From contig OY970292.1 in the NCBI GenBank assembly GCA_963716145.1, positions 533,171-597,170 on the forward strand: a stretch of 64,000 nucleotides of DNA. The letters are read 5' to 3'. Position numbers and translations under genes: made by a program. This DNA comes from Candidatus Levyibacteriota bacterium (lineage in GTDB: Bacteria; Patescibacteriota; Microgenomatia; Levybacterales; UBA12049). Position 1 is the stretch's first letter. Every line of letters starts with the position of its first letter. The notes under the pieces were generated by a model. It was given only the letters and a program-made list of their open reading frames with translations. It was not told where the DNA came from and made no database searches. Below are positions 15,202-39,816 of the stretch, one piece after another.

Positions 15202-16038
15202 ATGAGTAGTGCAAAAGCATTCGCGCCTGCAAATATCAGCTGCGCTTTTAAGATTTATGAGCACAAAAATCCACGCTGGGCAGGCTCACTCGGATTTGGA
15301 TTTACTCTTAAAGAAGGAATAACTGTGGAAGTTACCAAATCAAAAACAAGCAAAGTTTTTTTTAATAAAAAGCAGGTCGATTTCCCGACAATAAGACAAG
15401 TTATAAATTCTTTGACAAAAGAGAAAATAGTTGTGAATCTAACTTCTCCCCTGCCTCTTGGCTGTGGGTTTGGCTTGAGCGGAGCAAGCGCGCTGGCAGC
15501 GTCTTACGCCTTAAATAAATTGTTGAAACTTGGTAAATCCAAAAAGCAGCTGGCTATTATTGCACACGTCGCGGAGGTTGAAAATAAAACCGGTTTGGGC
15601 GATGTAACAAATCAATATTACGGAGGTTTTTTGGTGAAATTCAAGCCCAGCTCACATTTTGAAGTTATCAAAATTCCGCTTAAGGATGTTCCAATTTTCT
15701 GCCTGAGCTTTGATAAACTACCTAATAACTCCATCCTTAACAATACAAGATTAACAGCTGATATAAATAGAGAAGCAGCAGTTGCATTGGGTAAAATGCA
15801 GGACTTGCTAAAATCAGGAGAGAAAGTGGAACTTGGATATATTATCAAGCTTTCAAAAGAATTTGCAATAAAATCAGGACTGCTTACAGATAAAAAAGTA
15901 ATTGAAACTATAGAGGCTATCGAAAAAGATAGTGGTCAGGCTTCAATGATAATGCTCGGAGATGCTGTATTCAGCAATATCAATTTCCCCGGCGCAAAGA
16001 GATTAACAATATCAGACCAGGGAGCGTATGTAATATAA
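15202..16038 (+). CDS. GHMP-family small-molecule kinase (candidate pantoate kinase)
   Basis: GHMP motif II PLGCGFGLSGASALAASYA and an N-terminal APANISCAF motif. 278 aa, overlapping the coaBC stop. Confidence 0.5.
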   Translation: MSSAKAFAPANISCAFKIYEHKNPRWAGSLGFGFTLKEGITVEVTKSKTSKVFFNKKQVDFPTIRQVINSLTKEKIVVNLTSPLPLGCGFGLSGASALAASYALNKLLKLGKSKKQLAIIAHVAEVENKTGLGDVTNQYYGGFLVKFKPSSHFEVIKIPLKDVPIFCLSFDKLPNNSILNNTRLTADINREAAVALGKMQDLLKSGEKVELGYIIKLSKEFAIKSGLLTDKKVIETIEAIEKDSGQASMIMLGDAVFSNINFPGAKRLTISDQGAYVI

Positions 16039-16064
16039 AAGCTTATCTATTCGTAAATATAATT

Positions 16065-16263
16065 TTGTGTGAGCATTCAAACAAGCGCGTTTACCCCGCT
16101 AAGCGGGGTTAAGAAATTGTGAATGAATTGTCAGGGGGAATCCGGCTCGAAGCTGAAAGCTGAGTGGCCGAAGGGGGCGGACAATCCCCCGACAATGAAT
16201 GAAACAATTTTAGCGCGACTTTGCAGCTCACAAGCTTTTGGTTCTTTTGTCGACACAAAAGAA
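16065..16263 (+). repeat. copy A of a conserved structured element (candidate small RNA)
   Basis: About 80% identity to 53549-53711 with two indels, and a compensated terminal hairpin (gttcttttgt-cgac-acaaaagaac). A TATAAT box sits at 16056-16061 just upstream. A long-range helix pairs ttgtcaggggg with cccccgacaa. Confidence 0.55.
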
Positions 16264-16293
16264 CAACCACAATCTGCTATAATCCATCTATTC

Positions 16294-17802
16294 ATGAAAC
16301 GGCAAATTTCAGCAACCATGGCCACGCAGCATCCTGACCATGCAGGTGTACCTTACTGGCATGACCGGGAATTCATAAGAACCAGTTACGAGTCGCACGA
16401 AACATTTGAGGCATTTTCTGAGCTTGGAATTCGCGAGTATAAATGGGACTGGGAGGGCAAACTTGTTGATGAATCGGTGCTTGAAAGATTGTTTGGGGAG
16501 CATTTTGAATTCTTTAAAAAAAACCCCTTGGGACAAAAAACATTTTTGACATTCAGACTCCCAAATCCCAAAGTCGAGACCGAATTCCGAATAGGTCGTG
16601 CTTTTATGAACCTAGCAAGTGCCGCAAGTGTCGCAAAGCATTTCGGGCTCCCTACTCCCCCGCTTTTTGAAGTGATTCTCCCCATGACCACATCAGCTGA
16701 GGAGATCTTTGAGATTCAAGTTGCCTATCAGCAAATTCACGCACTCACCCATCCTTTGTATCGCTTGAATAGTATTCTGACCAATCCCCGCATCATCCCA
16801 TTGTTTGAAGATGTTGAGACAATAATTAACTCTGACAAAATAATCGAAAAGTACATAAATCTTTATAAAAAACGGTTTAAAAAGACACCTCCATATATCC
16901 GCCCGTACGTTGCACGGAGTGATCCGGCTTTGAATTTCGGAATGGTACCTACAGTCTTTGCCATAAAAATTGCGCTATCAAGGTACGCAAAGTTGTCTAA
17001 GAAACTCAGGATTCCTTTTTATCCGATCATCGGAGCAGCTGTTCTTCCCTTCCGTGGAGGGATAGATCCAACGCGTATTGAGAAATTCGCTGATGAATAC
17101 AGAGGAATCCGCACAACCACAATTCAAAGTGCTTTCAGGTATGATTTTCCCAAAAAAGACGTTATAAAAGCCATAAAATATCTTGAAAAGACCCTCCCAC
17201 AACAAAAAGCGGAAATCATCCCAGCTAGCGAAGAAAATGAAATGATCAAGCTCATACCTTACTTTGAAAGTTCGTATCGCGAAACAATCGAAAAAATTGC
17301 ACCAGTAATAAATACTATTTCGGGTTTTTTACCCAGGCGCCGCGAAAGAGTCCAGCACATCGGACTTTTTGGATATTCAAGAGGAGTTGGTAAAGTAAAG
17401 CTACCGCGAGCAATTGGATTCACCGCAGCCCTTTATTCAATCGGCGTGCCTCCTGAATTCATAGGGACAGGAAGAGGCATAAAGCAAGCTAAAAAACTAG
17501 GTAAATTGGCAATCGTAAAAAAATATTATAAATATGTTTCAGAAGATCTGGATCAAGCAGGCAGATATCTAAATACTGATAATTTGAATAAACTGAGCAA
17601 GAAATCAAACGCTTGGAAAAAAGTATTGGAAGACATAAAGGCGGTCGAAGAAACATTGGGGATAAAACTCAGACCCATAACAAAAGAGGAAAAAGAACAC
17701 AAAAAACTTACTGATAAAATTTATGCGCAGCTGGATTCAGGAGACGTAATGCTCACCGAGCTAATCACCAAAGCCGCAATTCTCCGGAAAAGTTTGGGAT
17801 AA
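16294..17802 (+). CDS. archaeal-type phosphoenolpyruvate carboxylase (PepcA family)
   Basis: N-terminal MATQHPDHAG motif, GYSRGVGK (analogue of the classical GYSDSGK), and a C-terminal Gly. The start is moved to an in-frame ATG downstream of the repeat element; the track start at 16123 lies inside that element. Confidence 0.7.
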   Translation: MKRQISATMATQHPDHAGVPYWHDREFIRTSYESHETFEAFSELGIREYKWDWEGKLVDESVLERLFGEHFEFFKKNPLGQKTFLTFRLPNPKVETEFRIGRAFMNLASAASVAKHFGLPTPPLFEVILPMTTSAEEIFEIQVAYQQIHALTHPLYRLNSILTNPRIIPLFEDVETIINSDKIIEKYINLYKKRFKKTPPYIRPYVARSDPALNFGMVPTVFAIKIALSRYAKLSKKLRIPFYPIIGAAVLPFRGGIDPTRIEKFADEYRGIRTTTIQSAFRYDFPKKDVIKAIKYLEKTLPQQKAEIIPASEENEMIKLIPYFESSYRETIEKIAPVINTISGFLPRRRERVQHIGLFGYSRGVGKVKLPRAIGFTAALYSIGVPPEFIGTGRGIKQAKKLGKLAIVKKYYKYVSEDLDQAGRYLNTDNLNKLSKKSNAWKKVLEDIKAVEETLGIKLRPITKEEKEHKKLTDKIYAQLDSGDVMLTELITKAAILRKSLG

Positions 17803-21276: not shown

Positions 21277-22440
21277 ATGGATCAGGCTGAAAAGACAATC
21301 AAAGATTTGCTAAAGCTCGCGGATATAAAAATTAACGGCAAAAGACCCTGGGATATTCAGATTCATGACAATAGGTTTTACAAACGTATTTTGAATGATG
21401 GCTCACTTGGGCTTGGTGAATCATACATGGATGGCTGGTGGGACAGTAAACAAATTGAGGAAGCAATTGCCAGAATGATAAGGGCGCAACTCGACCGCAA
21501 GATCAAAAAAAGCCTCTCCTTAATTCTTTTCCTTGCCCGTAACAAATTCTTCAACAATGCAACCATCAAAAGATCCTACAAAGTAGGAAAAATACATTAT
21601 GACGTCGGCAACGAACTGTATGAAAAAATGCTAGATAGCGAGATGAACTATACTTGCGGGTATTGGAAAGGACTTGGCGACCCGCTGACTGCCTGGAAAG
21701 ATCCCAAGAACTTAGATAAAGCGCAAACTGCCAAAATGGATTTAATTTGCCGAAAACTTGGTCTTAAGAAAGGAATGAATGTCCTTGATACCGGCTGCGG
21801 CTTTGGAAATTTCGCAAGATACGCCGCAGCCAACTATGGCGTAAGCGTTGTCGGTTGTACTGTGTCCAAAGAGCAGGCAATAAAAGCGCAGGAGAGATGT
21901 AAGGGTCTGCCGGTTAAAATTTATCACAAAGACTACCGCGAGCTGAAATTGGACAAAAGCTTTGACCGCGTTGCCTCAATCGGAATTATGGAGCATATCA
22001 CATACAAAAATTATGATAATTATCTCAGGATCACTTGCGGGGCCCTCAAGGACGACGGACTTATGCTTCTTCACACCATAGGTTATGAAATATCAGTAAC
22101 CGCAGGCGAACCATGGGAGGAAAAATATATTTTCCCAAATTCTCATCTGCCTTCAATTGCCCAGATGGCAAAAGCTGCCGAGAGTAAATTTATTATCGAA
22201 GACCTCCAAAATTTTGGGCTTTACTACTACCCTACCCTTATGAGCTGGTGGACCAATTTCGATAAATCCTGGAAGGAACTTTCCAAAAAATATCCTGAAA
22301 AATACGATGAACGGTTCTATAGAATGTGGAAATATTATCTCCTATCCTTTGCCGGTTCCTTTAAAGCAAAAAATCTTCAGCTTTTTCAAATTGTTCTTTC
22401 AAAAAACAAAAAGGCCGAAGTCTATGAGGCAGTACGCTAA
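21277..22440 (+). CDS. cyclopropane-fatty-acyl-phospholipid synthase family SAM-dependent methyltransferase
   Basis: SAM-binding motif LDTGCGFGNFARYAA and CFA-synthase-family length and pattern. Confidence 0.75.
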   Translation: MDQAEKTIKDLLKLADIKINGKRPWDIQIHDNRFYKRILNDGSLGLGESYMDGWWDSKQIEEAIARMIRAQLDRKIKKSLSLILFLARNKFFNNATIKRSYKVGKIHYDVGNELYEKMLDSEMNYTCGYWKGLGDPLTAWKDPKNLDKAQTAKMDLICRKLGLKKGMNVLDTGCGFGNFARYAAANYGVSVVGCTVSKEQAIKAQERCKGLPVKIYHKDYRELKLDKSFDRVASIGIMEHITYKNYDNYLRITCGALKDDGLMLLHTIGYEISVTAGEPWEEKYIFPNSHLPSIAQMAKAAESKFIIEDLQNFGLYYYPTLMSWWTNFDKSWKELSKKYPEKYDERFYRMWKYYLLSFAGSFKAKNLQLFQIVLSKNKKAEVYEAVR

Positions 22441-22442
22441 TA

Positions 22443-23819
22443 ATGGATTCAAAAAGTGATTACAATAAAAAACAGAGAGGTATTGTTCGTCAATTAAAAC
22501 TGATAAATAATATCAAAGGCGTAGATGGCCTTGGTCTATCCAAACAAAACTCAAATCTATTCCGCAACCGCAAAAAGGGCGCAAAACCAAAACTCGATGT
22601 AAGAAGCCTCAATAAGGTTATACATGTCGACAAGAAAAAACTGATTGCGGAAGTTGAAGGAATGACCACGTATCAGGATTTGGTAGATGCCACTCTTGCA
22701 TTTTCCCTTTTGCCCCCTGTCGTTCCCCAACTGGCCACTATCACAATCGGCGGTGCTATAAGCGGTGGAGGAATTGAGGCATCATCTTTTAAATTTGGGC
22801 TTGTTCATGAAACAGTTGAGGAAATGACAATACTACTAAGTAACGGAGAAGTAATAACCGCAACAGCTAAAAATAAACACCGCGATATTTTTGCAGGAAT
22901 TGTCAATTCTTACGGCACGCTTGGATATATTCTAAAACTAAAAGTAAAACTTGTAAAAGCCTCCCCTTTTGTTCAACTTAGACATTTCAGTTTTACCAAT
23001 TCAAAAGATTACTTTGCCGCGGTTGATGAAGTATTTAAATATAAAAAATACAAAGGAGAAAGAGTAGATTTCATGGACGGCATGGTTATTGATTCCAAAA
23101 AACTTTATCTTTTACTTGCAAGATTTACAGAAAAAGCCCCATATCTCAGTAATTATAAATATATGAATATTTACTTTCGGTCAATCGCAAAAAGATCTGA
23201 GGATTTTTTGACTGTCCGAGATTTTATCTGGAGATGGGATACAGACTGGTTCTGGTGCTCAAAGGGATTTGGCCTTCAAAACCCATTATTGCGCTTAATT
23301 GTGGGAAAGTTTTTGCTTAACTCCAAAGCTTATTGGAAAATTACAAAACTTGATGGGCGCTTTGGACTGGTCGAAAAGTGGGAAAGTCTTAAGGGAAAAA
23401 ATAAATCCAGAGAAAGGATTGTTCAGGATGTGGAAATTCCAATTGATAATTCAGGTAAATTTTTGGATTTTTTTATAAAACGGATAGGAATCTCCCCCAT
23501 TTGGATTTGTCCCTTAAAAACATATAAATCAAGCACCAACTTTCCTTTTTTTCCTTTTGATCCCAAAAAAGAATATATTAATTTTGGCTTTTGGGACAGC
23601 GTTCCCGCAAATAAAAATTCTCAAAGCTACTTCAACCGCTTAATAGAGCGCACGGTTATAGATCTTAAAGGACATAAAAGTCTATATTCTGACTCATTTC
23701 ATACTGAATCTCAATTTTGGAATATATACGATAAAAAACTCTACAATAAATTAAAAAGTATTTATGATCCGGACTCTAGATTAAAAAATTTATATCAAAA
23801 ATGCGTAACTGCTATTTAG
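22443..23819 (+). CDS. FAD-binding oxidoreductase (PCMH-type FAD domain)
   Basis: ATITIGGAISGGGIEASSFKFGLVHE pattern of the FAD-binding PCMH domain. Starts 3 nt after the methyltransferase stop. Confidence 0.65.
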   Translation: MDSKSDYNKKQRGIVRQLKLINNIKGVDGLGLSKQNSNLFRNRKKGAKPKLDVRSLNKVIHVDKKKLIAEVEGMTTYQDLVDATLAFSLLPPVVPQLATITIGGAISGGGIEASSFKFGLVHETVEEMTILLSNGEVITATAKNKHRDIFAGIVNSYGTLGYILKLKVKLVKASPFVQLRHFSFTNSKDYFAAVDEVFKYKKYKGERVDFMDGMVIDSKKLYLLLARFTEKAPYLSNYKYMNIYFRSIAKRSEDFLTVRDFIWRWDTDWFWCSKGFGLQNPLLRLIVGKFLLNSKAYWKITKLDGRFGLVEKWESLKGKNKSRERIVQDVEIPIDNSGKFLDFFIKRIGISPIWICPLKTYKSSTNFPFFPFDPKKEYINFGFWDSVPANKNSQSYFNRLIERTVIDLKGHKSLYSDSFHTESQFWNIYDKKLYNKLKSIYDPDSRLKNLYQKCVTAI

Positions 23820-23894
23820 CAAATATACTTAAACCCTTTCTCTGTTGTTGACAGATTGTACAAAATGTTGTACATTATAGATATGAGCAACTTT

Positions 23895-24134
23895 ATGTCC
23901 ATATCTGATGCCCGCTCTCAACTCCCCAAGCTTGTTAACAAGGTTAGCGAAGGCATGGAGAGTGTAACAATTACAGTAAACGGCCAGCCAAAAGTTACTT
24001 TAATAAACACCGAAGAGTTGGAGTCAATCAAGGAAACTGCCGGTATACTTTCTGTGCCTGGCGCGAAAAAAGAATTGAGGGAGGGCTTAAAACAAGCCAA
24101 AAAAGGCCTCGGCATTCCCCTTTCTGAACTTTAA
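23895..24134 (+). CDS. Phd/YefM-family antitoxin
   Basis: MSISDARSQLPKLV...VTITVNGQPKVTLIN pattern. The start is moved to an internal ATG. Confidence 0.7.
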   Translation: MSISDARSQLPKLVNKVSEGMESVTITVNGQPKVTLINTEELESIKETAGILSVPGAKKELREGLKQAKKGLGIPLSEL

Positions 24135-24135
24135 T

Positions 24136-24384
24136 ATGCAAATCATCGTCACTCCCAAGGCGCAAAAGCATTTCAAAAAATTACCAAAACCTGAGCAAGC
24201 AAAAGTTAAAAGAAAATTTAAGCTTTTAGAAGATGCTCCCCTGTCAGGTAAAAAACTGGACGGAGAATTTATAGAATTAAGATCAATACGAGCCTGGCCT
24301 TACAGAATATTTTATTATCTGAGTACAAAAGAAAACAAGATATTTATTACCTCAATCCTCCACCGCCAAGGAGCTTACAAATAA
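24136..24384 (+). CDS. RelE/ParE-family toxin
   Basis: 82 aa with ...AWPYRIFYY...ILHRQGAY motifs. Starts 2 nt after the antitoxin stop. Confidence 0.7.
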   Translation: MQIIVTPKAQKHFKKLPKPEQAKVKRKFKLLEDAPLSGKKLDGEFIELRSIRAWPYRIFYYLSTKENKIFITSILHRQGAYK

Positions 24385-25965: not shown

Positions 25966-26649
25966 ATGAAAAGAAGACTGATTCTTGCTCATTGGATAAT
26001 TGATTACGCCTACCGGGTAAGAGGTGAGGTACAAATGTACCGCTACCGCAAAGTTCCTACACACTTCCCTATAAGCAAACAACGTAAATCCCCCATTATA
26101 TTTCTCTCCGGTTTTACTCTAAGATGGGGATTTCTCAAACATCTTGCAGACCAGCTTTCACTTGACGATTATCCTGTTTACGTTGTTCAGGAACTTAAAA
26201 ATAACATTGGCGATATCCCAAAGTCCGCAGCAAAAGTCAAGACTATTATGGATATAAATAATCTTAAAAACGTGATAATTATTGGCCACAGTAAAGGAGG
26301 ATTAATTGGAAAATACCTACTTATTCACCACAATCAAGACAATCAAATCAAAACAGTAATTGCAATTGCGAGCCCATTCTCTGGTACTACTCTTGCCCGC
26401 AAAATTCCCTTCCCATCATTTAAAGAAGTGGCTGACAAAAGCAAAATGATAAAAGAAATGGCAACAAATAATAAAGTTAATTCAAAAATTATATCAGTTT
26501 TCCCTGCTTTCGATAACCATGTCTGGCCTCAGGGAAGCAGCTTTCTGCAAGGCGCAAAAAATGTAGAATTGAAAGTAAAGGGCCACCACCGAATTGTTTT
26601 TGATAAAGGTACTCAACAGGTAATAATAGATTGTATTAAAAATTTATGA
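25966..26649 (+). CDS. alpha/beta-hydrolase (lipase/esterase-like)
   Basis: GHSKGG nucleophile-elbow motif. The start is moved to an internal ATG. Confidence 0.5.
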   Translation: MKRRLILAHWIIDYAYRVRGEVQMYRYRKVPTHFPISKQRKSPIIFLSGFTLRWGFLKHLADQLSLDDYPVYVVQELKNNIGDIPKSAAKVKTIMDINNLKNVIIIGHSKGGLIGKYLLIHHNQDNQIKTVIAIASPFSGTTLARKIPFPSFKEVADKSKMIKEMATNNKVNSKIISVFPAFDNHVWPQGSSFLQGAKNVELKVKGHHRIVFDKGTQQVIIDCIKNL

Positions 26650-26972
26650 GTATGAAATGCGGAGTTGACATCATCTACATTCCGGGTATTGCCAAAATAC
26701 GAAATGATGCCAGTCTGCTGGAAAAGTTTTTCCATACAAACGAGATTGAGAATCCAACTCCTGAACATCTAGCAGGACTAATTGCCGCCAAAGAAGCCTT
26801 TTTTAAAGCACTTGGTAGGCCTCCGAAATTTCTGGAAATCCAAATCCGACACAAAGAGTCCGGCAAGCCTGAAATAATAGTCTCTCCTGAATTTAAAAAG
26901 TATAAATCAATTGATGTCTCAATAAGCCATGATGGAGATTACGCAATTGCTTTTGTTATACTTGAGGTATGA
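26646..26972 (+). CDS. acpS: holo-ACP synthase (4'-phosphopantetheinyl transferase)
   Basis: GVDIIYI...AAKEAFFKALG...SISHDGDYAIAFV, the AcpS-family pattern. 108 aa. Confidence 0.7.
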   Translation: MSMKCGVDIIYIPGIAKIRNDASLLEKFFHTNEIENPTPEHLAGLIAAKEAFFKALGRPPKFLEIQIRHKESGKPEIIVSPEFKKYKSIDVSISHDGDYAIAFVILEV

Positions 26973-29464
26973 TCAGAACCATCCCCGACCTAATTGAAAC
27001 CTTCAAAACTCGTGATAAAACCGCCATCATCCAAAAAACCGGCGTTCGTACTTTTACCTATACATACAAGCAATTTTATAAAAATATTCTAAAAACCCAG
27101 ACTATGCTTGACAGACTTGGCCTCAAAAAAGGAGATAAGATTCTTCTCTGGGGATTCAACGGCCCATCATGGGGCACTCTTTTTCTTGCAGCTGCCCGAT
27201 CCGGAATCATCATAGTTCCTGTTGATTTTTTGAGCCTGCCTGAATTTGTTAAAAGTCTAAAGGAGATTGTCGGCGCAAAAGCGATCTTTCACTCTGAATT
27301 TAAAATCCCGCCTGAAATGGGAATCAAAAAAGTAATTATTGAGAATCTGGATTTTTATATTAAAGACCTTCCCCAAAAAACGGAAAAGACAGAAATCTCA
27401 GAAAATGATTTACTGGAAATCGTCTTCACATCAGGAACAACGGGTGACCCCAAAGGCGTGATGCTGACTCATAAAAATCTTGTTTCAAATATAGAAGGTG
27501 TCTTAAAAGTTATAAAAATAAATCCCGAGCAAACCTTTTTGTCTCTTCTTCCGATGAGCCACTTATTTGAGCAAAACCCCGGTTTTTTGGCTCCGTTAAG
27601 CGCGGGCTGTACTATCGTTTACATGAAGGGGCTCAGGCCAAATCTCATTTTCAAGACACTCTCGGAAGTCAAAATAACCAATATCGCGCTTGTCCCCAGG
27701 CTCTTAAAATTGTTTTATGACGGCATTATGCGCGAAGTTGAAGCAACAGGAAAGACAAAAACATTTAATAAATTGCTCAACTTAGATCTCCCAAAACCAG
27801 TCCGGAAAATTTTATTTTCAAAAGTTCATAAAAAATTCGGGACTCATTTTCAGTATTTTATCTCAGGCGGCGCGCCGCTTAGCGAGGAACTCGATACCTT
27901 CTGGAAAAAGTTAGGATTTACAATTGTTGAGGGTTACGGCCTGTCGGAATGCTCCCCCATACTTACTGCCAATACTCCTCAGAAACAAGTTCCCAGATCA
28001 GTGGGTAAACCTATCCCGGGCGTAACTCTTAAGATCAATAATAGCGGTGAAGTTCTGGTCAAGGGCGACAACATAACTCAGGGTTATTTTCAGAAAAAGG
28101 AACAAACAAAAGCACTGTTTGATGGCAAATGGATGAAGACAGGCGACATCGGATCATTGGACAAAGACAACTATCTTTTCCTAAAAGGAAGGGCAAAAGA
28201 TATAATTGTGACAGGGGCTGGTGTCAATGTTTATCCTGAGGATATTGAAAAGGTCCTCATGAAAAATAACGATGTCAAAGATGTCTGTGTCTTGGGAGTT
28301 CCAACTGACGCGGGCGAAGAGGTGCATGCAGAAATAATTTTGAAGGATCCCAAAACAAACCTCAAATCAATCATCGATTCTACCAATAAAGAATTAAATG
28401 AAGCCCAGCAAATTCTCTCTTTTGCCCTCTGGAATACAGACGATTTCCCCCGGACGACCACAATGAAGATCAAAAAGCGCTTTGTTTTGAGCGAGATTAA
28501 CGAGCGCGAGAAGAAAGACACCACACTAAAAGCTGAGAATAAATCCAAACTTCACGAAATAATTGCCAAGATAAATGACATTGATCCGCGGACAATCAAA
28601 CCATCATCCAACCTTTCACTTGATCTGAAACTCACTTCAGTAAATAAAATTGAATTAATTTCAATAATAGAGCAAGAATTCAATCTTGATATTGATGAAG
28701 ATGAAATTAACAACAAAACAACAGTCGTAGATCTTGAGAAGATAATTAAAGACCGCCGCCGTTTCAGCAAAAAAGATGTATTCAGGCGATGGACGCTTGC
28801 GATGCCAATCAGGATACTTAGATTTGTTTGGAATCTTATAATTGGTGACAATCTGATTTATCTCTTTTGCAGACGCGAGGTTGTGGGGCTTGAGAACTTA
28901 AAAGATCTAAATCAACCGGCTATCTTCATCGCGAACCACATCGGGTATTTTGACGCGCCAAATGTGCTGATGTCGCTTCCATTCGGCATCCGCAATAAAA
29001 TAGCAACCGCTGCCTGGAAGGAGTATTTCACAACTGATGGAGATCCCCTCTTTAAAAATAAAGTTCTTGATCATCTTCTCTGGAAATTCTACTACCAATA
29101 CACAACTATTTTTGTAAACGTCTATATGTTCCCCAAAAAAACCGGTTTTAAGGAAAGTCTTGAGTACACGGGAGAGCTCTTGGATAAAAATTGGAATATT
29201 TTATTTTTTCCTGAAGGCGAACACTCGCCCGATGGAACTCTTCAGCCTTTCCGCTCGGGAATCGGCTGGATTGCCAAGGAAATGAGAGTACCAATTGTCC
29301 CCATTAAGCATTTTGGTCTTTCGAAAATCATGGCAGGTGATCCGCACCAATTCCCCAGATTTGGAAAAGTTACGATCAAAATCGGCAAACCGGTGATGCT
29401 TGATTACACCAAATCAATTCCGGAAATAACTAATCAACTCCACGATATAATTGCGAAGATGTAA
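26969..29464 (+). CDS. tri-domain acyl-ACP synthetase - ACP - 1-acylglycerol-3-phosphate acyltransferase fusion (Aas-like, reversed domain order)
   Basis: N-terminal AMP-binding enzyme (TSGTTGDPKGV, GYGLSE). Central ACP-like segment (LSLDLKLTSVNKIELISIIEQEFNLDIDEDE). C-terminal PlsC motifs (NHIGYFDAP, FPEGEHSPDG). Confidence 0.7.
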   Translation: MIRTIPDLIETFKTRDKTAIIQKTGVRTFTYTYKQFYKNILKTQTMLDRLGLKKGDKILLWGFNGPSWGTLFLAAARSGIIIVPVDFLSLPEFVKSLKEIVGAKAIFHSEFKIPPEMGIKKVIIENLDFYIKDLPQKTEKTEISENDLLEIVFTSGTTGDPKGVMLTHKNLVSNIEGVLKVIKINPEQTFLSLLPMSHLFEQNPGFLAPLSAGCTIVYMKGLRPNLIFKTLSEVKITNIALVPRLLKLFYDGIMREVEATGKTKTFNKLLNLDLPKPVRKILFSKVHKKFGTHFQYFISGGAPLSEELDTFWKKLGFTIVEGYGLSECSPILTANTPQKQVPRSVGKPIPGVTLKINNSGEVLVKGDNITQGYFQKKEQTKALFDGKWMKTGDIGSLDKDNYLFLKGRAKDIIVTGAGVNVYPEDIEKVLMKNNDVKDVCVLGVPTDAGEEVHAEIILKDPKTNLKSIIDSTNKELNEAQQILSFALWNTDDFPRTTTMKIKKRFVLSEINEREKKDTTLKAENKSKLHEIIAKINDIDPRTIKPSSNLSLDLKLTSVNKIELISIIEQEFNLDIDEDEINNKTTVVDLEKIIKDRRRFSKKDVFRRWTLAMPIRILRFVWNLIIGDNLIYLFCRREVVGLENLKDLNQPAIFIANHIGYFDAPNVLMSLPFGIRNKIATAAWKEYFTTDGDPLFKNKVLDHLLWKFYYQYTTIFVNVYMFPKKTGFKESLEYTGELLDKNWNILFFPEGEHSPDGTLQPFRSGIGWIAKEMRVPIVPIKHFGLSKIMAGDPHQFPRFGKVTIKIGKPVMLDYTKSIPEITNQLHDIIAKM

Positions 29465-29526
29465 TCAGAAACTAAGTTCTGTATACTGCTTGTCTTCACT
29501 TGGTTCATACAGTATAATCTTGCTCT

Positions 29527-30198
29527 ATGTTCGGTAGATTTGAAAGAGCTGCTGTCTTAGCTGGAGCACCGTATGCTCCGGGATTGGCTCCGCACGTTGC
29601 TGAGGCCATGGATAGAAGATCTGAATTAGAAAGATTTAACCCAGCGATGTTTCAAGCAGGAGTTGAGTTAAGAGGCTTACTTGGAGAATGGGATGGAGTA
29701 TCACCAAGAGAAAAGGGAAACAATCTTTCTTTCCTGGACAGTGTAGGCAATATTTTCTTAGAAACTATATCAAAACAACCCTTCCTGCATGAAACAAAGC
29801 CAATAAGGAGAAAAACCAGGAAGAGACAACCTTGGCAGGTATTTAAAGCTGTAATTCTAAGAGGAAGTGCTCCCGAAGACCAAAATGCGTATCGCATATA
29901 TGACCACCTACATTTCCGTATGCGAGCAGGTGCATTAGTGCTAGAGCATAAACAAAAATCACCTGAAATATCCAACCTTCCTGGAGGAGTAAGTCAGAGG
30001 ATTGAATTCAGACCTTCTGAAATTAAAGATCGGTTTGGAAGATATTCGGGCGAATTCATTACAAATCCAACTTACACTACCCAAGGTAGTACTAATGGAT
30101 ATTCGTTTGGGAGACACTCTGTAAGTGGTCAAGAAGCGCAAAGAGCTGCTGGGCTTGCATATAGACTTGTCGAATCAGTTGCAGAAATTATCAAATAA
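29527..30198 (+). CDS. hypothetical protein
   Basis: 223-aa ORF with slightly elevated GC. Confidence 0.35.
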   Translation: MFGRFERAAVLAGAPYAPGLAPHVAEAMDRRSELERFNPAMFQAGVELRGLLGEWDGVSPREKGNNLSFLDSVGNIFLETISKQPFLHETKPIRRKTRKRQPWQVFKAVILRGSAPEDQNAYRIYDHLHFRMRAGALVLEHKQKSPEISNLPGGVSQRIEFRPSEIKDRFGRYSGEFITNPTYTTQGSTNGYSFGRHSVSGQEAQRAAGLAYRLVESVAEIIK

Positions 30199-31058: not shown

Positions 31059-31733
31059 TTATTTAGACCGTACTTGAGATTTGAAATTTGAAATTGGTAA
31101 TTTCAGTATCAATCCCCCGCTTATCAGGCCCAATCCCGCCCCCAAAATTGCACCCCCTACCACATCCGTTGTCCAATGTTCACCCAGGTAAACACGGGAG
31201 ACAAACATCACAATGTTATAACATGTTATAACGCCGATGAATGTAAATTTTAAGATTGTGCTTAATTTTTTACTCTGAAATATTAACACAACCAAGATTA
31301 TTGAAATAAAAGCTGTCCTTCCAGCATGTCCTGAGGGATAAGAATTCTCAAGTCGCACATGAAATTGGGGGAAATCAATAATATGCTTTGTTCTTAACAT
31401 AAATTGTGGAGGGGGCGCATGATCGACAAAAAATTTTCCGTATATTTCAATCAAATGAAAACCAACGTATAATCCCAAACTAACAAATCCTGCCACTATT
31501 TTCCTTGCAAAAATCAATATCACAAGTAACGCAATCGTCATCACCTCAATTTTCCCAACATCGCTAAATGTTGAAAATATATTGTCCAGCCGCCTTGGAG
31601 TTTTGTCCTGAAGACGCACTGTTGTATTGAAATCAATCGCTGTAAAGTGATTTTTGTGGACTAAGTAAGAGAATAAAATAAAGAGGAAAAAAAGGGCAAC
31701 TCCTGCCAAAATCAAAATATACTTCCTGGACAT
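31059..31733 (-). CDS. PAP2-family phosphatase
   Basis: PSGH and SRVYLGEHWTTDVVGG motifs in a polytopic protein. Confidence 0.7.
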   Translation of the reverse strand: MSRKYILILAGVALFFLFILFSYLVHKNHFTAIDFNTTVRLQDKTPRRLDNIFSTFSDVGKIEVMTIALLVILIFARKIVAGFVSLGLYVGFHLIEIYGKFFVDHAPPPQFMLRTKHIIDFPQFHVRLENSYPSGHAGRTAFISIILVVLIFQSKKLSTILKFTFIGVITCYNIVMFVSRVYLGEHWTTDVVGGAILGAGLGLISGGLILKLPISNFKSQVRSK

Positions 31734-36481: not shown

Positions 36482-36540
36482 TCTCTCCAAAATCCTCCAA
36501 CTTATTGACAACTCTTAGCTTTCTACGATAGAGTATTAAT

Positions 36541-36945
36541 GTGACTAATGGTAAAAAAATTATAATTGGCGGAATTTCTATCATCGCGCTGGTTATGCTT
36601 TTTGTCATTTTCGCGCCTTCATCATGGAAATTGCAAAAAAACAAACCATCCCTCAGCCCAACCCCCAACAATTGGCAGACCAATCCTTCAATTATTCCTG
36701 AATCAATGCAAGGCAAGGTTACTGCGTCTCTTTCAGCTGAATTAAAGGAGGTAGATAATTCAAATATTACAGGCGTTACAACATTTAAAGAAATTAATGG
36801 CAAGGTTTTTGTGGGGGTCGTACTTAAAGACGCATCGGCTGATACTGAATATCCGGCATATATCCATTACGGAACCTGTACTGAGCAAAAAGGTCCAAAT
36901 ATTCCCTCAGCCCGGTTGTCAAAGGAAAAACAGACAATTATATAA
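36541..36945 (+). CDS. small secreted protein, function unknown
   Basis: N-terminal TM or signal sequence. Faint beta-sandwich, SOD-like pattern (weak, not relied on). Confidence 0.35.
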   Translation: MTNGKKIIIGGISIIALVMLFVIFAPSSWKLQKNKPSLSPTPNNWQTNPSIIPESMQGKVTASLSAELKEVDNSNITGVTTFKEINGKVFVGVVLKDASADTEYPAYIHYGTCTEQKGPNIPSARLSKEKQTII

Positions 36946-37169
36946 ATACGACAGTTGCAGAATTTAAAAAAGAATTCCCGCTCTCTGTTAAAATCCACAA
37001 ATCTTCAGATGAGCAAGACGGATTGCTCAGCTGCGCTGATCTTAAATAATTCTGCGAAACCGCGTAGGCGGAAAAGCAGAACATCATTCGTATAAATGCT
37101 TTTTTCATTGATTTCCCGCTTTTTAAAATTTTGCTATACACCTAGCCTCAACAATCTGCATTGTGATAC

Positions 37170-37198
37170 TTGACATCTTATAGGGTATTTAATATACT
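37170..37198 (+). promoter_or_regulatory. near-consensus sigma70 promoter
   Basis: TTGACA, 17 nt, TATACT. Confidence 0.4.
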
Positions 37199-37750
37199 GT
37201 GTGGGATTCTTTGGAAGGTAAAGCTGAGAGTGCTTTTTTCGCGCTTTCACCCCAACCTTTTCCTGAAGAACGAAATCGGTAACTGAGATATGAAGGTCCA
37301 AACGCTGGACCAAATCATAACTCTTTTGCACTTTAAAAAACTAGGGATGTATTTTTTGCGTCCCGTAAGGATCATGAAATACTATGGACATCATCTATTA
37401 GCAGTTAAATGCTTTCAAATTTTTGTTGCGACCCATGCTCGCTTCTTCTCTTGTCCCGCGAAGCCTTTTGGCGAAGCGGGAAATCTCTCCGGTTATTTTC
37501 CTAAACTTTAAGCACTACTGTAATTTTGCTTATTTTTATAGGATAATTTATCGGAGAATTACATTCGGGATTGACATCCTACATTGGAGATAAATTATTT
37601 GTCTCCAGCGTTGGATGTCACATCCACCTAATTAGGGCAATTCTCACGGCGACCGCCGGCCCTAGCTTCCCCTAAAGGAGAGACTCGTCCTTACGACAAG
37701 GAGAGACTTTTTCGCAGGGAAAGTATGAGAGACAGACAAGGAGCAACACC

Positions 37751-38385
37751 ATGCAACGTCCATCCATCCGCCGAGGATTCGTGGCCGCTTTGGTCGCAAT
37801 TGGGATCGGTCTTACCACCGCCCCCGCCCCGGCGCTCGCCGACAACACCGACGTCAACGCCATCGTCGCCCAGGCCCGTGCCGACGCCACCACCCGTGTG
37901 GAAGCCGCTCTCGCAGCAGCCAACGCTCGTGTCGCAACCGTCGCCGCCCCGGCCCAGGCCGCCGACAACAACATCACGGCCACCCCGGCCAGCACCACCT
38001 CGGAGGCAACCGCCACCGAGTCCACCTACCAGGCACCCGCCGACACCGGCAACGCCAACAGCGGCACCGTCGAGGTCGCACCTGACCCCGTCGTCGCTTC
38101 GGCACCCGTCGTCGTCGAGGCAGCAGCTGTCGCTGTGGAGGCGCCGCCCCCGCCCCGGCCCTTGCCGTTTCGGCGCCTGTCGCACCCCTGGACTTCAACA
38201 TCCAGAACCCTGCCCAACCGGGGCAGAGGGTGCGCTTCGTGCGTTCCGAGGACGGGTCGTTCAGCGTGATCGCCACCAACAGGACCGGTTCGAACCAGTC
38301 CGCCCGCGTGTTCGCAGACCCCGTCTCGATCGGGATCGGCGTCCGCAACGGGAGCAAGAACTTCACCGGCGTCTTCAGCAGGTAG
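37751..38385 (+). pseudogene. high-GC (about 70%) Actinobacteria-like Ala/Pro-rich secreted protein gene, frameshifted
   Basis: AAGGAG ribosome-binding site 7 nt before the ATG. Signal peptide MQRPSIRRGFVAALVAIGIGLTTAPAPALA. GCC/GAC/ACC/GTC codon usage. The frame breaks in a C-run at about 38140-38165 and continues in another frame (DFNIQNPAQPGQRVRFVRSEDGSFSVIATN...) to the TAG at 38383-38385. Confidence 0.5.
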
Positions 38386-38958
38386 TCGCTTCACCAGGTG
38401 ATGCATCAAGGAAGGTTGACGGAATTTCTGTCTCAGGCCTCGGCTTGACTCAAGAGCTCGTCAGCTCCCCGCGATGCATCGCCTTTAGCTTTTAGCTTGC
38501 AAGGATGATCGTCCTCCTCCCTAGTTGGGAACTTTTTATGTGCCTAAAAAGCGCTAGTTCCCAACAGGGAGGGTGGATTCACTGATGTGGATTTTTCCTC
38601 GTAGAGGAGACATTTTCACATTTGTGATATTTTATTTTTTACGCGTTGCGGCTAAGCTGTTTCTGAGCAATTCGCGCTCCTTTTCACCGCTTACCGCGTA
38701 CCGTTACCCTATCCACCCTCCCTACTTCTATTTTGAGCCCCAATCAGACTTGGCGAAGCCTCGTTTGACGCGGGACTTAGAATAAAAGTATTTCATTATC
38801 TCAAAAATTACTCCTAAGCTCTGATTTATAACCACCATCTACTATCAGTACTTTGTTCCCGTTTGTAATTATTCTTATTTGCTTCTTAGCTGAAGATTTT
38901 TGACGTAGAAAAAACACCTTCATTGACATATAAGCTCCCCTATTTGTATAGTTAAATT

Positions 38959-39816
38959 GTGAGCAAAAAGTTTCTTCTAAACATTCTTACTGTTTCCATT
39001 TTATTTGTATCTGGTACCTTTTTGGTCTGGGCAGCAGCTAGCCCGAATGGGTGCGGAGGTAATGGCGGTACAGCCGGAGGCGTAGGCACCAAAGGATGCG
39101 ATAGCAGCTTCACAGGTTATAAAGGCGGCAACCCAGGCTCAGCAGGAGGAGGAAATGGGAATCCCGGTGGTAATGGATCTAATTTATCTGGGGATGCTGG
39201 TCAATATGGTGCTGGTGGGGGTGGGGGTGGAGGCGGAAGTGCTGGCGTTCGCGGTGGAAATGGAGGAATTGGTGGAAATTTTAATAACTTAGACGGTTTG
39301 GAGAGCGCTTCAGGCAACGGAGGACACGGAGGCTCGGGCGGTGCCTCTACTACCAATAGCGTCAGCGGTGGTGATGGTGGAACTGGAGGATTGGGAGGCA
39401 TTCTACAAAACGATAGCAACACCGGTAGCATAGGCGGAACGGGGGGTAATGGAGGGAAGGGAGGAGATACAGGCACAAGCGGGAGCGGAGCGGGTGTTGC
39501 CGGTGGTGCTGGAGGCGCCGGGGGAAATGGAGGAAATGTGTCAAAAGATACAGGGTTTGGTGTTACTACTTGGGGTAAGGGAGGAACTGGTGGCGTTGGG
39601 GGAAATGGAGGCGCTGGAGGCGATGCAAATGTGTCTGGGAACGGTGGTAATGGTGGTATAGGGGGAAAAGGAGGAAATGGTGGGAACGGAAAGACAAGTG
39701 GAGTTGGCTCCAACGGTGGGGTGGGGGGAAGTGGAGGAGATAGTTTTAGAGGGATTGGAGGAAACGGAGGAACCGGTGGAAATGGTGGCACTGGCTCAAC
39801 TGCAGGTACCCGGTAG
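38959..39816 (+). CDS. N-terminal segment of a giant surface protein: signal peptide plus Gly-rich (GGNGG/GGAGG) repeats
   Basis: TM or signal sequence MSKKFLLNILTVSILFVSGTFLVWA, then about 260 aa of GGxGG repeats. The Gly tract continues in other frames to about 40600. Confidence 0.5.
   Translation: MSKKFLLNILTVSILFVSGTFLVWAAASPNGCGGNGGTAGGVGTKGCDSSFTGYKGGNPGSAGGGNGNPGGNGSNLSGDAGQYGAGGGGGGGGSAGVRGGNGGIGGNFNNLDGLESASGNGGHGGSGGASTTNSVSGGDGGTGGLGGILQNDSNTGSIGGTGGNGGKGGDTGTSGSGAGVAGGAGGAGGNGGNVSKDTGFGVTTWGKGGTGGVGGNGGAGGDANVSGNGGNGGIGGKGGNGGNGKTSGVGSNGGVGGSGGDSFRGIGGNGGTGGNGGTGSTAGTR

What the first reader, a model, noticed from the sequence alone, without database searches (positions are those of the whole stretch)
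26646..29464. AcpS next to an acyl-ACP synthetase - ACP - lysophospholipid acyltransferase triple fusion
The 831-aa protein joins an AMP-forming acyl-ACP/CoA synthetase, an internal carrier-protein-like segment, and a PlsC-type acyltransferase (HxxxxD). This resembles E. coli Aas with reversed domain order and a built-in carrier. With the phosphopantetheinyl transferase immediately upstream, it could activate exogenous fatty acids and esterify them onto lysophospholipids. That would suit an organism without its own fatty-acid synthesis.
Basis: partly seen in the sequence, partly recalled or inferred. Interest (0 to 1): 0.6.

Follow-up and report, generated by a model that had tools for sequence, protein, structure and literature searches.

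The report
Fatty-acid salvage enzyme with built-in carrier
A tiny-genome (CPR-type) bacterium encodes, back to back, a carrier-priming enzyme and a single 831-residue protein that should activate a scavenged fatty acid, hold it on its own carrier arm and attach it to a membrane lipid; this is a testable answer to how such cells, which reportedly lack carrier-protein-dependent lipid enzymes, build their membranes.

Summary
ORF 26646..26972 is an AcpS-type phosphopantetheinyl transferase. It overlaps by 4 nt ORF 26969..29464, an 831-aa fusion of an adenylate-forming acyl synthetase, an ACP-type carrier domain and a PlsC-type acyltransferase. All three domains score above Pfam cutoffs. Every catalytic residue, including carrier Ser557 and H657/D662, is invariant in 119 relatives.

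The domain order is the reverse of Aas. It matches Myxococcus ElbD without its reductase, a form noted in the literature but never characterized. The family is not confined to reduced genomes: it also occurs in Geomonas, Acidobacteriota and Dehalococcoidia.

What is specific to CPR bacteria and DPANN archaea is linkage to a short AcpS: 12 of 12 such loci, none of about 23 evaluable loci elsewhere, plus 21 exact contig-length matches. A lipase-like or patatin-like hydrolase often sits alongside (8 of 12).

Best reading: a self-contained enzyme that salvages fatty acids and acylates LPA or a lysophospholipid. The acceptor is unresolved. Absence of FASII in this genome could not be tested. I rate it a new variant of a known kind, of moderate to high interest.

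The parts
25966..26649 (+). Lipase-like alpha/beta-fold serine hydrolase, 227 aa from the ATG at 25966 (a GTG at 25951 is also possible). Motifs: GHSKGG at 26284-26301, FDNH at 26509-26520, GHHR at 26581-26592. Accessory gene, proposed to supply free fatty acid.
   Evidence: Pfam PGAP1 1.5e-8, Abhydrolase_1, DUF915, Palm_thioest, LCAT. Its only PDB relatives are lipases and esterases, all weak. Orthologues (44-70% identity) hold the same position in L082, L083 and L089. Its stop overlaps the AcpS start.
26646..26972 (+). Short AcpS-type 4'-phosphopantetheinyl transferase (108 aa). Proposed to convert the fusion's carrier domain from apo to holo form using CoA.
   Evidence: PF01648 7.3e-10; TIGR00556 67.5 bits, above its 45.35 cutoff. 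Motifs GVD (26661-26669), AAKEAFFKA (26784-26810) and SISHD (26919-26933) are conserved in 11 linked homologues.
26969..29464 (+). 831-aa fusion protein: acyl-adenylate-forming synthetase, then ACP domain, then PlsC-type acyltransferase.
   Evidence: AlphaFold model pLDDT 88.9, pTM 0.86.
26969..28513 (+). Adenylation (ANL) domain, residues 1-515. Contains TSGTTGDPKG (27428-27457) and the C-terminal catalytic Lys K500 (28466-28468).
   Evidence: PF00501 1.3e-67. Best PDB hit FadD13 3r44, 5.2e-40. Foldseek TM about 0.85 to ATP/AMP-bound MatB and MenE. Motifs invariant.
28517..28540 (+). Disordered linker, residues 517-524, between the synthetase and the carrier.
   Evidence: The only segment with pLDDT below 50.
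28547..28753 (+). Acyl carrier domain, residues 527-595. Phosphopantetheine-attachment Ser557 is at 28637-28639.
   Evidence: PF00550 35 bits, cutoff 20.8. AcpP-type ACP models NF002148 7.5e-9 and TIGR00517 1.9e-7. PDB ACPs such as 2lol 1.1e-5. S557 invariant in 119 sequences.
28802..28867 (+). Long hydrophobic/amphipathic helix, residues 612-633 (MPIRILRFVWNLIIGDNLIYLF), ahead of the acyltransferase core. Proposed to sit at the membrane interface.
   Evidence: Helix 612-633 in the model. The domain model aligns over the full length of T. maritima PlsC. Membrane association is an inference.
28874..29305 (+). PlsC/AGPAT-type acyltransferase core, residues 636-779 (the fold extends to residue 831, nt 29461). 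H657 at 28937-28939, D662 at 28952-28954, FPEG at 29207-29218.
   Evidence: PF01553 6.7e-15. TIGR00530 1.3e-10 and the Aas acyltransferase region about 1e-9. Foldseek best hit 5KYM PlsC, E 7.2e-10, TM 0.64. Residues invariant.

Best explanation
The AcpS gene and the 831-aa gene form one functional unit, in many relatives together with an adjacent lipolytic hydrolase.

Proposed steps:
1. AcpS transfers 4'-phosphopantetheine from CoA onto Ser557 of the fusion's carrier domain.
2. The N-terminal synthetase adenylates a free, scavenged long-chain fatty acid with ATP.
3. The acyl group is thioesterified onto the protein's own pantetheine arm.
4. The flexibly tethered carrier delivers the acyl group to the C-terminal PlsC-type acyltransferase.
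5. At the membrane surface, that domain esterifies it to the free hydroxyl of a lyso-glycerolipid: 1-acyl-glycerol-3-phosphate or a lysophospholipid.

In effect this is Aas chemistry carried out by one polypeptide that needs no soluble ACP and no acyl-CoA pool.

Shown here: the domain identities, the conservation of all catalytic residues, the fold, and the gene linkage. Inferred: fatty acid as the substrate, loading in cis, the identity of the acceptor, and the hydrolase's role as the source of fatty acid.
For: **Domains and residues.** All three domains pass Pfam cutoffs. S557, H657/D662, PEG and the adenylation motifs, including K500, are invariant in 119 homologues down to 37% identity.

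**Carrier type.** The carrier is fatty-acid ACP-like: it hits AcpP models and PDB ACPs.

**Synthetase type.** The synthetase is closest to long-chain fatty acyl synthetases (NF004837 9.9e-87; FadD13 5.2e-40; AasS 9.2e-24).

**Acyltransferase type.** The acyltransferase is closest to 1-acyl-G3P acyltransferases (TIGR00530; stand-alone AGPAT hits) and to the Aas acyltransferase region, and its best fold match is PlsC 5KYM.

**Model.** The model is confident, with a disordered tether ahead of the carrier.

**AcpS linkage.** AcpS is adjacent to the fusion in 12 loci: window, L082-L086, L088-L091, L010 and L106. In most of them the stop and start overlap or nearly touch, even where every other neighbour differs. 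In addition, 21 AcpS relatives lie on contigs of exactly the same length as fusion relatives, some only 2.8-5.3 kb long.

**No stand-alone ACP nearby.** No AcpP-like ORF occurs in 204 kb around these loci other than the fusions' own carrier domains.

**Lipid-related neighbours.** Non-homologous lipolytic genes recur beside the pair: an alpha/beta-hydrolase in window, L082, L083, L089, L086 and L090, and a patatin-like gene in L088 and L091. Other neighbours act on phospholipids: a Cfa equivalog at 21277-22440 and CdsA beside the pair in L010.

**CoA supply.** CoaBC and a pantoate-kinase-like gene lie 11 kb upstream.

**Precedents.** Aas performs the same two steps using free holo-ACP (PMC11416262). 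The synthetase and ACP activities of ElbD were confirmed in vitro (PMC9131029).

**Biological context.** CPR bacteria are reported to lack lipid synthesis, to contain acylglycerol lipids rich in lysolipids, and to have shown no ACP-using enzymes (PMC7242380).
Against: - There is no biochemical evidence for any member of this three-domain family. The acyltransferase activity of ElbD could not be detected in vitro.
- The acceptor is unknown. The scores against PlsC and against the Aas acyltransferase region are nearly equal, and all are below equivalog cutoffs.
- No LplT-type flippase partner was found. The MFS genes next to the fusion in L086 and L087 are generic and unrelated to each other.
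- The synthetase looks like an ordinary CoA ligase (nearest hits FadD13 and MatB), so it might also, or instead, make acyl-CoA.
- The family occurs in bacteria of large-genome lineages where FASII is expected (Geomonas 4.8 Mb, Acidobacteriota, Dehalococcoidia). Salvage in the absence of FAS therefore cannot be its only role.
- Absence of FASII/acpP in this genome was not tested; only 64 kb of 1.14 Mb was visible.
- AcpS could also serve another client, for example a D-alanyl carrier protein.
- The promoter and terminator scans were uninformative.
Confidence: 0.6

Rival explanations
1. ElbD-like ether-lipid enzyme. The protein would load a fatty acid and acylate dihydroxyacetone phosphate or glycerol phosphate as the entry step to alkyl-ether or plasmalogen lipids, as proposed for Myxococcus ElbD.
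For: The ACS-ACP-AT order is the same as the C-terminal three-quarters of ElbD-type proteins (L017: NAD_binding_4 + AMP-binding + PP-binding + Acyltransferase). The literature already calls such proteins 'ElbD-like homologues' lacking FAR and counts them as ether-lipid potential, including in Woesearchaeia.
Against: There is no reductase (FAR) domain. No AGPS or elbB/C/E-type neighbour appears in any CPR/DPANN locus. Similarity to the ElbD-type protein is no higher than to the Aas type: A domain 251 vs 250 bits, AT 60 vs 64 bits. No protein of ElbD length (~1450 aa) is among the 150 closest ACP-AT relatives. CPR-fraction lipids were all acylglycerols. An organism with an ElbD homologue (Pontiella) made no ether lipids.
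Confidence: 0.08
2. Same loading chemistry, but the acyltransferase acts on a non-glycerophospholipid acceptor. Candidates are a lyso-aminolipid (OlsA-like), a glycolipid or betaine lipid, a lipoteichoic-acid anchor, or another envelope molecule.
For: PF01553 enzymes acylate many acceptors; PatA and LpxM are also among the fold matches. The region corresponding to PlsC block II reads ATAAWxEFF in this family rather than the usual motif. The lysolipids enriched in CPR fractions carried betaine head groups. Scores to PlsC and Aas models are all below their cutoffs.
Against: The best sequence and fold matches are LPA acyltransferases and the Aas acyltransferase region. Neighbours act on glycerophospholipids: Cfa, CdsA, patatin.
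Confidence: 0.15
3. The synthetase simply makes acyl-CoA, which the acyltransferase uses as donor. The carrier domain would be a structural or regulatory remnant, and the AcpS gene would be adjacent for unrelated reasons, serving another carrier protein.
For: The A domain resembles CoA ligases. Many PlsC enzymes accept acyl-CoA. CoA biosynthesis genes are present.
Against: The carrier Ser and its surrounding motif are invariant across 119 sequences. AcpS is linked in 12 of 12 CPR/DPANN loci, in otherwise unrelated neighbourhoods, and on 21 matching contigs. A decayed AcpS remnant abuts the fusion in L009, consistent with joint transfer of the pair. No other ACP-like ORF lies near any of these AcpS genes.
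Confidence: 0.07
4. On the accessory gene only: the adjacent alpha/beta-hydrolase is a type-II-thioesterase-like editing enzyme that clears mis-loaded acyl groups from the carrier arm. It would not be a lipase that supplies fatty acid.
For: It has a Palm_thioest (acyl-protein thioesterase) hit at 4e-6. Editing hydrolases are commonly encoded next to carrier-dependent synthetases (general knowledge of NRPS/PKS clusters).
Against: There is no hit to the Thioesterase family. Its PDB relatives are lipases and esterases. In other lineages the same position is held by patatin-like proteins, which are lipid acyl hydrolases.
Confidence: 0.15

Closest known systems
E. coli Aas (2-acylglycerophosphoethanolamine acyltransferase / acyl-ACP synthetase) and its LplT partner
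   Same: It pairs an adenylate-forming acyl-ACP synthetase with a PF01553 acyltransferase in one polypeptide. Its two-step chemistry is fatty acid to acyl-ACP to lysophospholipid, and it is a peripheral membrane enzyme (PMC11416262). The window protein hits the Aas NCBIfam models in both halves.
   Different: The domain order is reversed: Aas is AT then ACS. Aas has no carrier domain and borrows soluble holo-ACP. It is paired or fused with the MFS flippase LplT (L018/L021), and no LplT equivalent was found here. Identity is about 27-30% per domain, and scores are far below the equivalog cutoffs (160 vs 1221-1349 bits).
Myxococcus xanthus ElbD (FAR-ACS-ACP-AGPAT) and 'ElbD-like homologues lacking FAR'
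   Same: The ACS-ACP-AT order is identical, with an internal carrier. The ACS and ACP activities of ElbD were shown in vitro. Homologues without the reductase have been noted in other phyla (PMC9131029). The ElbD-type example L017 aligns over residues 17-790.
   Different: There is no N-terminal fatty-acyl reductase and no elb operon context. Identity is only about 30%, no closer than to Aas. The ACP-AT half forms a separate family of about 231 clusters at 50% identity, with no protein of ElbD length (~1450 aa) among the top 150. An ether-lipid role is unsupported here.
PlsC (1-acyl-sn-glycerol-3-phosphate acyltransferase), e.g. T. maritima PlsC, PDB 5KYM
   Same: The C-terminal domain shares the fold (TM 0.64-0.65 over about 228 columns), HX4D, FPEG and an N-terminal helical segment. 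TIGR00530 is the best family hit for the C-terminal half.
   Different: PlsC is a stand-alone protein of about 240 aa that takes acyl-ACP or acyl-CoA from a pool. The score is below the TIGR00530 cutoff (41 vs 103 bits). The block-II region differs (ATAAWxEFF) and carries an extra helix at 698-715.
Chlamydia trachomatis AasC (CT776) plus lysophospholipid acyltransferase CT775
   Same: A host-dependent bacterium activates host fatty acids onto ACP and re-acylates lysophospholipids (PMC5693948, abstract seen).
   Different: The proteins are separate and use the cell's own AcpP, and Chlamydia retains a complete FASII (PMC6167442 abstract).
Dedicated ACS + ACP + acyl-transfer sets for one lipid, e.g. 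the ACS/ACP/serine palmitoyltransferase genes of Rhodobacteria
   Same: The logic is the same: a private synthetase loads a private carrier that feeds a single lipid-forming enzyme (PMC9386255 abstract).
   Different: The genes are separate, the acyl-transfer enzyme belongs to a different family, and the product is a sphingolipid.

Membership tests
ANL superfamily adenylate-forming acyl synthetase (PF00501) | Pfam score above the gathering threshold, with the core motifs (T/S)SGTTGxPKG, YGxTE, TGD and the C-terminal catalytic Lys | tested here: met
   228.8 bits vs a 29.9 cutoff. TSGTTGDPKG 154-163, YGLSE 323-327, TGD 391-393 and K500 are all invariant or nearly so in 119 sequences. Fold TM about 0.85 to MatB and MenE.
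Fatty acyl-AMP ligase (FAAL) subclass | A FAAL-specific insertion that blocks CoA thioester formation; closest relatives are FAALs | tested here: inconclusive
   The A domain is short (about 515 aa) and its nearest solved relatives are CoA ligases (FadD13, MatB, 4CL), not FAALs. The insertion was not mapped residue by residue.
Acyl carrier protein domain (PF00550) | Helical carrier fold, with a conserved Ser at the start of helix II in a D/L-x-L-x-S context | tested here: met
   35 bits vs a 20.8 cutoff. S557 is invariant and is the first residue of helix 557-571. It hits AcpP-type models and PDB ACPs. Phosphopantetheinylation itself cannot be tested in silico.
PlsC/AGPAT-type acyltransferase (PF01553) | HX4D catalytic dyad, FPEG(T/x) block III, and the PlsC fold | tested here: met
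   55.5 bits vs a 23 cutoff. H657, D662 and P748-E749-G750 are invariant. The best fold match is 5KYM.
PlsC equivalog (1-acyl-G3P acyltransferase, TIGR00530) | Score above the curated cutoff; LPA as the acceptor | tested here: not met
   41.1 bits vs a 102.95 cutoff. Acceptor specificity cannot be tested with these tools.
Aas (acyl-[ACP]--phospholipid O-acyltransferase; NF005291 / NF006386) | Score above the equivalog cutoff | tested here: not met
   160 bits vs cutoffs of 1349 and 1221.
Aas | Domain order AT then ACS, with no internal carrier and free holo-ACP used in trans | tested here: not met
   Here the order is ACS-ACP-AT. Aas-type L018/L021 are MFS-AT-ACS without PP-binding. E. coli Aas has AT at 1-203 and the synthetase at 204-719.
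Aas | Genetic coupling to the MFS lysophospholipid flippase LplT | tested here: not met
   No MFS gene is adjacent in the window. The MFS genes adjacent in L086 and L087 show no LplT model hit (only the best 25 of 71 hits were listed for L087) and are not orthologous to each other.
ElbD (ether-lipid multifunctional enzyme) | N-terminal fatty-acyl reductase (NAD_binding_4 / Sterile) domain | tested here: not met
   Absent from the window protein. Present in the ElbD-type protein L017.
ElbD | ACS-ACP-AGPAT order with an internal carrier | tested here: met
ElbD | elb operon context (elbB HAD-like, elbC, elbE NAD-dependent epimerase) and production of ether lipids | tested here: not met
   None of these families appears among the neighbours in 12 CPR/DPANN loci. 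Lipid products cannot be tested here.
AcpS-type phosphopantetheinyl transferase (PF01648 / TIGR00556) | Score above the cutoff, size of about 100-130 aa, and conserved Mg/CoA-binding Asp, Glu and Lys residues | tested here: met
   39.3 bits vs 25, and 67.5 bits vs 45.35. D8, the E/K pair in AAKEAFFKA, and SISHD are conserved in 11 linked homologues. The acpS equivalog TIGR00516 falls just below its cutoff (50.2 vs 59.8).

The most novel reading that the evidence does not exclude
In CPR bacteria and DPANN archaea, the short AcpS and the ACS-ACP-acyltransferase fusion form a mobile two-gene module, often with a phospholipase or lipase attached. This module would be the only carrier-protein-dependent system in these cells. 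It would be the missing route by which ultra-small cells without fatty-acid synthesis turn scavenged fatty acids and lysolipids into diacyl membrane phospholipids.

The same pair occurs in Woesearchaeota-labelled contigs. In L010 it sits beside a bacterial-type CdsA on a contig that also carries archaeal GatD. That would mean some DPANN archaea make bacterial-type ester phospholipids with a module shared with CPR bacteria.
Probability: 0.3. Interest if true: 0.8.

Novelty: new variant of a known kind. Interest (0 to 1): 0.57.

Why it matters
How CPR/Patescibacteria and DPANN cells obtain membranes is an open question. Probst et al. 2020 found regular acylglycerol membranes enriched in lysolipids. 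They found no complete lipid pathway and stated that no enzymes producing or requiring ACP were identified in the CPR genomes they studied.

A conserved AcpS gene coupled to a protein that carries its own ACP would be a concrete ACP-dependent route from scavenged fatty acid to membrane lipid. It would also explain why these genomes retain a phosphopantetheinyl transferase and, here, CoA synthesis genes.

The idea is directly testable: two genes, expressible in E. coli, with simple readouts. It also affects metagenome annotation. These proteins are currently labelled 'AMP-binding protein' or 'long-chain acyl-CoA synthetase', or are counted as 'ElbD homologues' and hence as ether-lipid capacity. 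The domain content found here does not support that ether-lipid reading.

Tried and rejected
1. **LplT partner.** The MFS genes next to the fusion in L086 and L087 looked like an lplT-aas analogue. They show no LplT model hit, are unrelated to each other and are unrelated to the window's MFS at 6445-7650. I dropped this as evidence.
2. **True ElbD for direct comparison.** The myxobacterial loci L049, L053 and L071 hold only stand-alone synthetases. The Acidobacteriota protein L017 served as the ElbD-type reference instead.
4. **Operon signals.** The counts of promoter-like and terminator-like sites equal those from shuffled sequence, so I did not use them.
5. **Homolog search with the ACP-AT half.** The word-indexed search missed most of the family. 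The exhaustive search was needed.
7. **Fold search with the full model.** It returned only ANL enzymes. The acyltransferase domain had to be modelled separately.
8. **Literature.** One literature search ('Southlakia') returned nothing relevant. Searches for AcpS or PPTase in CPR found no prior description.
9. **GC content as the predictor of AcpS linkage.** Rejected: the low-GC loci L016 (Opitutales, 0.43) and L024 (Fibrobacteraceae, 0.36) lack an AcpS. Lineage is what tracks the linkage, not GC.

Full report
**1. What is in the sequence**

The short ORF is an AcpS-type phosphopantetheinyl transferase. It scores 39.3 bits on PF01648 (cutoff 25) and 67.5 bits on TIGR00556 (cutoff 45.35).

The long ORF contains three domains, all above Pfam's gathering thresholds:
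- AMP-binding at residues 13-374 (1.3e-67), with a weak AMP-binding_C at 426-499
- PP-binding at residues 527-591 (1.7e-8)
- Acyltransferase PF01553 at residues 636-779 (6.7e-15)

The genes are tightly packed. guaA ends 5 nt before a 227-aa alpha/beta-hydrolase gene (25966..26649). That gene's stop overlaps the AcpS start, and the AcpS stop overlaps the fusion's ATG (ATGA) with GAGG just upstream. Consensus promoter and terminator scans were no better than shuffled sequence, so I do not use them.

**2. Are the domains intact?**

I aligned 119 full-length homologues at 37-74% identity. The following are invariant:
- the adenylation motifs (TSGTTGxPKG, the G322/Y323/G324/E327 positions of YGxxE, the G392-D393 of TGD)
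- the C-terminal Lys K500
- the carrier serine S557, in its L-x-L-(T/S)-S context
- H657 and D662 of HX4D
- P748-E749-G750

An AlphaFold model built on that alignment is confident (pLDDT 88.9, pTM 0.86). Its only disordered stretch is 517-524, between the synthetase and the carrier. S557 is the first residue of helix 557-571. A 22-residue hydrophobic helix (612-633) precedes the acyltransferase core.

The full model superposes best on adenylate-forming conformations of ANL enzymes. No solved structure covers more than the synthetase plus a carrier.

Modelled alone (pLDDT 88.4), the acyltransferase domain matches T. maritima PlsC (5KYM) best (E 7.2e-10, TM 0.64-0.65), ahead of PatA, GPAT1 and LpxM.

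By sequence:
- The C-terminal half is nearest to 1-acyl-G3P acyltransferases (TIGR00530 1.3e-10), to the acyltransferase part of Aas (about 1e-9) and to AcpP-type ACPs (7.5e-9). All are below the equivalog cutoffs.
- The synthetase is nearest to long-chain fatty acyl synthetases such as FadD13.

**3. Where it sits among known proteins**

Three reference architectures turned up among the fetched loci:
- LplT-Aas type: MFS-AT-ACS with no carrier (L018, L021)
- ElbD type: reductase-ACS-ACP-AT, 1484 aa (L017)
- The present ACS-ACP-AT type

E. coli Aas has an N-terminal transferase and a C-terminal synthetase, and uses free holo-ACP (PMC11416262).

The closer architectural precedent is ElbD. Its synthetase and ACP activities were confirmed in vitro. 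'ElbD-like homologues' lacking the reductase have been noted in other phyla but never studied (PMC9131029).

Domain by domain, the window protein is equally distant from the ElbD type and the Aas type, at about 30% identity.

An exhaustive search with the ACP-AT half found 231 clusters (at 50% identity) with E <= 1e-30. Nearly all of the 150 listed are 800-880-aa proteins of the same architecture, or truncated fragments of such proteins, and none has ElbD length (~1450 aa). This is therefore a distinct, sizeable and uncharacterized family. Databases label its members 'AMP-binding protein' or 'long-chain acyl-CoA synthetase'. Metagenome screens count them as ElbD homologues, that is, as ether-lipid potential.

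**4. Distribution**

The exact protein lies on a 1,142,061-bp contig. Its closest named relatives are from Patescibacteria and Saccharimonadales (55-74% identity). At about 40% identity the family also includes Sungbacteria, 'Woesearchaeota', Geomonas/Geotalea and Deltaproteobacteria.

The genome scan added Dehalococcoidia, Acidobacteriota, Limnocylindria, Anaerolineae, Nitrosomonas, Opitutales and Fibrobacteres.

The protein is therefore not in itself an adaptation to lacking fatty-acid synthesis.

**5. What is special about the small-genome lineages**

*AcpS linkage.* An AcpS gene lies beside the fusion in all 12 CPR/DPANN-type loci I could read:
- directly upstream in the window, L082, L083, L084, L085, L088, L089, L090, L091 and L106
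- one gene away in L086
- directly downstream in L010

This holds even where every other neighbour differs.

These AcpS proteins form one short type of 102-117 aa with conserved catalytic motifs.

*Loci without it.* None of about 23 evaluable three-domain loci from other bacteria has an AcpS nearby. One caveat: for the metagenome loci, detection relied on an HMM built from the CPR-type AcpS. L009 carries only a C-terminal AcpS remnant abutting the fusion.

*Independent support.* Independently of the fetched loci, 21 relatives of the window's AcpS lie on contigs whose length in bp matches exactly that of a fusion relative's contig. Several of these contigs are only 2.8-5.3 kb long.

*No stand-alone ACP.* In 204 kb around these loci, the only AcpP-like sequences are the fusions' own carrier domains.

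*Lipolytic neighbour.* A lipolytic-type hydrolase recurs beside the pair, in two non-homologous forms:
- A lipase-like alpha/beta-hydrolase is upstream of AcpS in the window, L082, L083 and L089 (orthologues at 44-70% identity; PDB relatives are lipases and esterases). An alpha/beta-hydrolase is downstream of the fusion in L086 and L090.
- A patatin-like gene is upstream of AcpS in L088 and L091.

*Other lipid genes nearby.* A true cyclopropane-fatty-acyl-phospholipid synthase lies at 21277-22440 (519.8 bits, cutoff 400). A bacterial-type CdsA sits directly beside the pair in L010. A PAP2 phosphatase lies at 31059-31733.

*CoA supply.* CoaBC and a pantoate-kinase-like gene lie 11 kb upstream, so the donor for AcpS is provided for.

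**6. Most likely mechanism**

1. AcpS primes S557.
2. The synthetase adenylates a free fatty acid.
3. The acyl group is loaded onto the protein's own pantetheine arm.
4. The tethered carrier swings to the PlsC-type domain at the membrane surface.
5. That domain esterifies a lyso-glycerolipid.

Domain identity, residue conservation, fold and gene linkage are shown here. Substrate, cis-loading, acceptor and the hydrolase's role as fatty-acid supplier are inferred.

The PlsC-like fold and the CdsA neighbour favour LPA as the acceptor. The phospholipase neighbours and the reported lysolipid enrichment of CPR cells (PMC7242380) favour a lysophospholipid. I cannot decide between them.

I give the overall mechanism 0.6. 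The rivals are:
- an ElbD-like ether-lipid role (0.08): no reductase, no elb or AGPS context
- a non-glycerophospholipid acceptor (0.15)
- an acyl-CoA route with a vestigial carrier (0.07): contradicted by the invariant Ser and the AcpS linkage

**7. Novelty and limits**

Searches of the held literature found no description of an AcpS-coupled, carrier-containing acyltransferase in CPR or DPANN.

Probst et al. state that no enzymes producing or requiring ACP were identified in the CPR genomes they studied. This module would be such an enzyme.

I rate it a new variant of a known kind: Aas/ElbD-type chemistry in an uncharacterized architecture, with a lineage-specific priming partner.

Main limits:
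- There is no biochemistry for any member of this three-domain family.
- The acceptor is unknown.
Only 64 kb of the genome was visible, and it contains no fab, acpP, pls or fak genes.
- The taxonomic labels of the metagenome bins, especially 'Woesearchaeota', were not independently verified beyond an archaeal GatD on L010.

Noticed in passing
window 21277-23819 (+): A true cyclopropane-fatty-acyl-phospholipid synthase (NF008686, 519.8 bits vs a 400 cutoff) is followed 2 nt later by a FAD_binding_4 oxidoreductase (weakly DprE1-like). A methyltransferase plus FAD-reductase pair recalls the mycobacterial 10-methyl fatty acid (BfaB/BfaA) system; that comparison is from memory and untested. CMAS genes also lie near the fusion in L082 and L090.
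   Followed up: partly
window 13971-17802 (+): CoaBC (TIGR00521, 391 bits) is followed directly by a GHMP kinase whose best match is archaeal-type pantoate kinase (NF040725, 1.2e-44, below cutoff), and then by an archaeal-type PEP carboxylase (PF14010, 7e-141). These are archaeal-style enzymes in a CPR-type bacterium.
   Followed up: partly
window ~36500-43300: A GC-rich insert (0.50-0.55 against a background of about 0.40) of roughly 6.8 kb splits the nusG-rplK-rplA / rplJ cluster. Long ORFs overlap on both strands. Only one ORF (40478-42265) has family hits: a Big_3_5 Ig-like surface-type domain and a weaker SdrD_B. No rRNA or other Rfam family was found there.
   Followed up: partly
window 29527-30198 (+): A 223-aa ORF lies just downstream of the fusion. 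It has no Pfam or NCBIfam hit and an atypical Ala/Gly/Arg-rich composition, and is preceded by a TTGTCT-17-TATAAT site at 29490-29518. It is absent from the syntenic relative L082, where a histidine kinase follows the fusion instead.
   Followed up: no
window 23856-24384 (+): A PhdYeFM antitoxin / ParE-type toxin pair sits between the FAD oxidoreductase and guaA. It is conserved in L082.
   Followed up: no
L009 7756-7953: Only the C-terminal part of an AcpS (…VSISHDGDYAMAFALV*) remains, abutting the fusion's start and preceded by stop codons. It looks like a decayed copy of the AcpS-fusion pair in a MAG labelled Nitrosomonas. An assembly error is not excluded.
   Followed up: partly
L010 10402-11655: On a 'Woesearchaeota' contig that also carries archaeal-specific GatD, the fusion is followed by AcpS and then by a bacterial-type CDP-diacylglycerol synthase (PF01148, 1e-43). 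This hints at bacterial-type phospholipid synthesis in a DPANN archaeon, or at mis-binning.
   Followed up: partly
L018 6798-10274; L021 6795-10289: Single ORFs of about 1160 aa in Gastranaerophilaceae fuse an MFS transporter, an acyltransferase and an acyl synthetase (LplT-Aas type). PMC11416262 describes this fused form as uncharacterized.
   Followed up: partly
P0123 (406 aa, on a 127-kb contig): This protein has only PP-binding plus Acyltransferase and is 34% identical to the window's C-terminal half. It may be a split form of the family with a separate synthetase.
   Followed up: no
window 6445-9218: An MFS transporter (6445-7650, minus strand; no specific family) and a MIP/aquaglyceroporin-type channel (8610-9218) lie near a cluster of four tRNA genes (6001-8097).
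   Followed up: no
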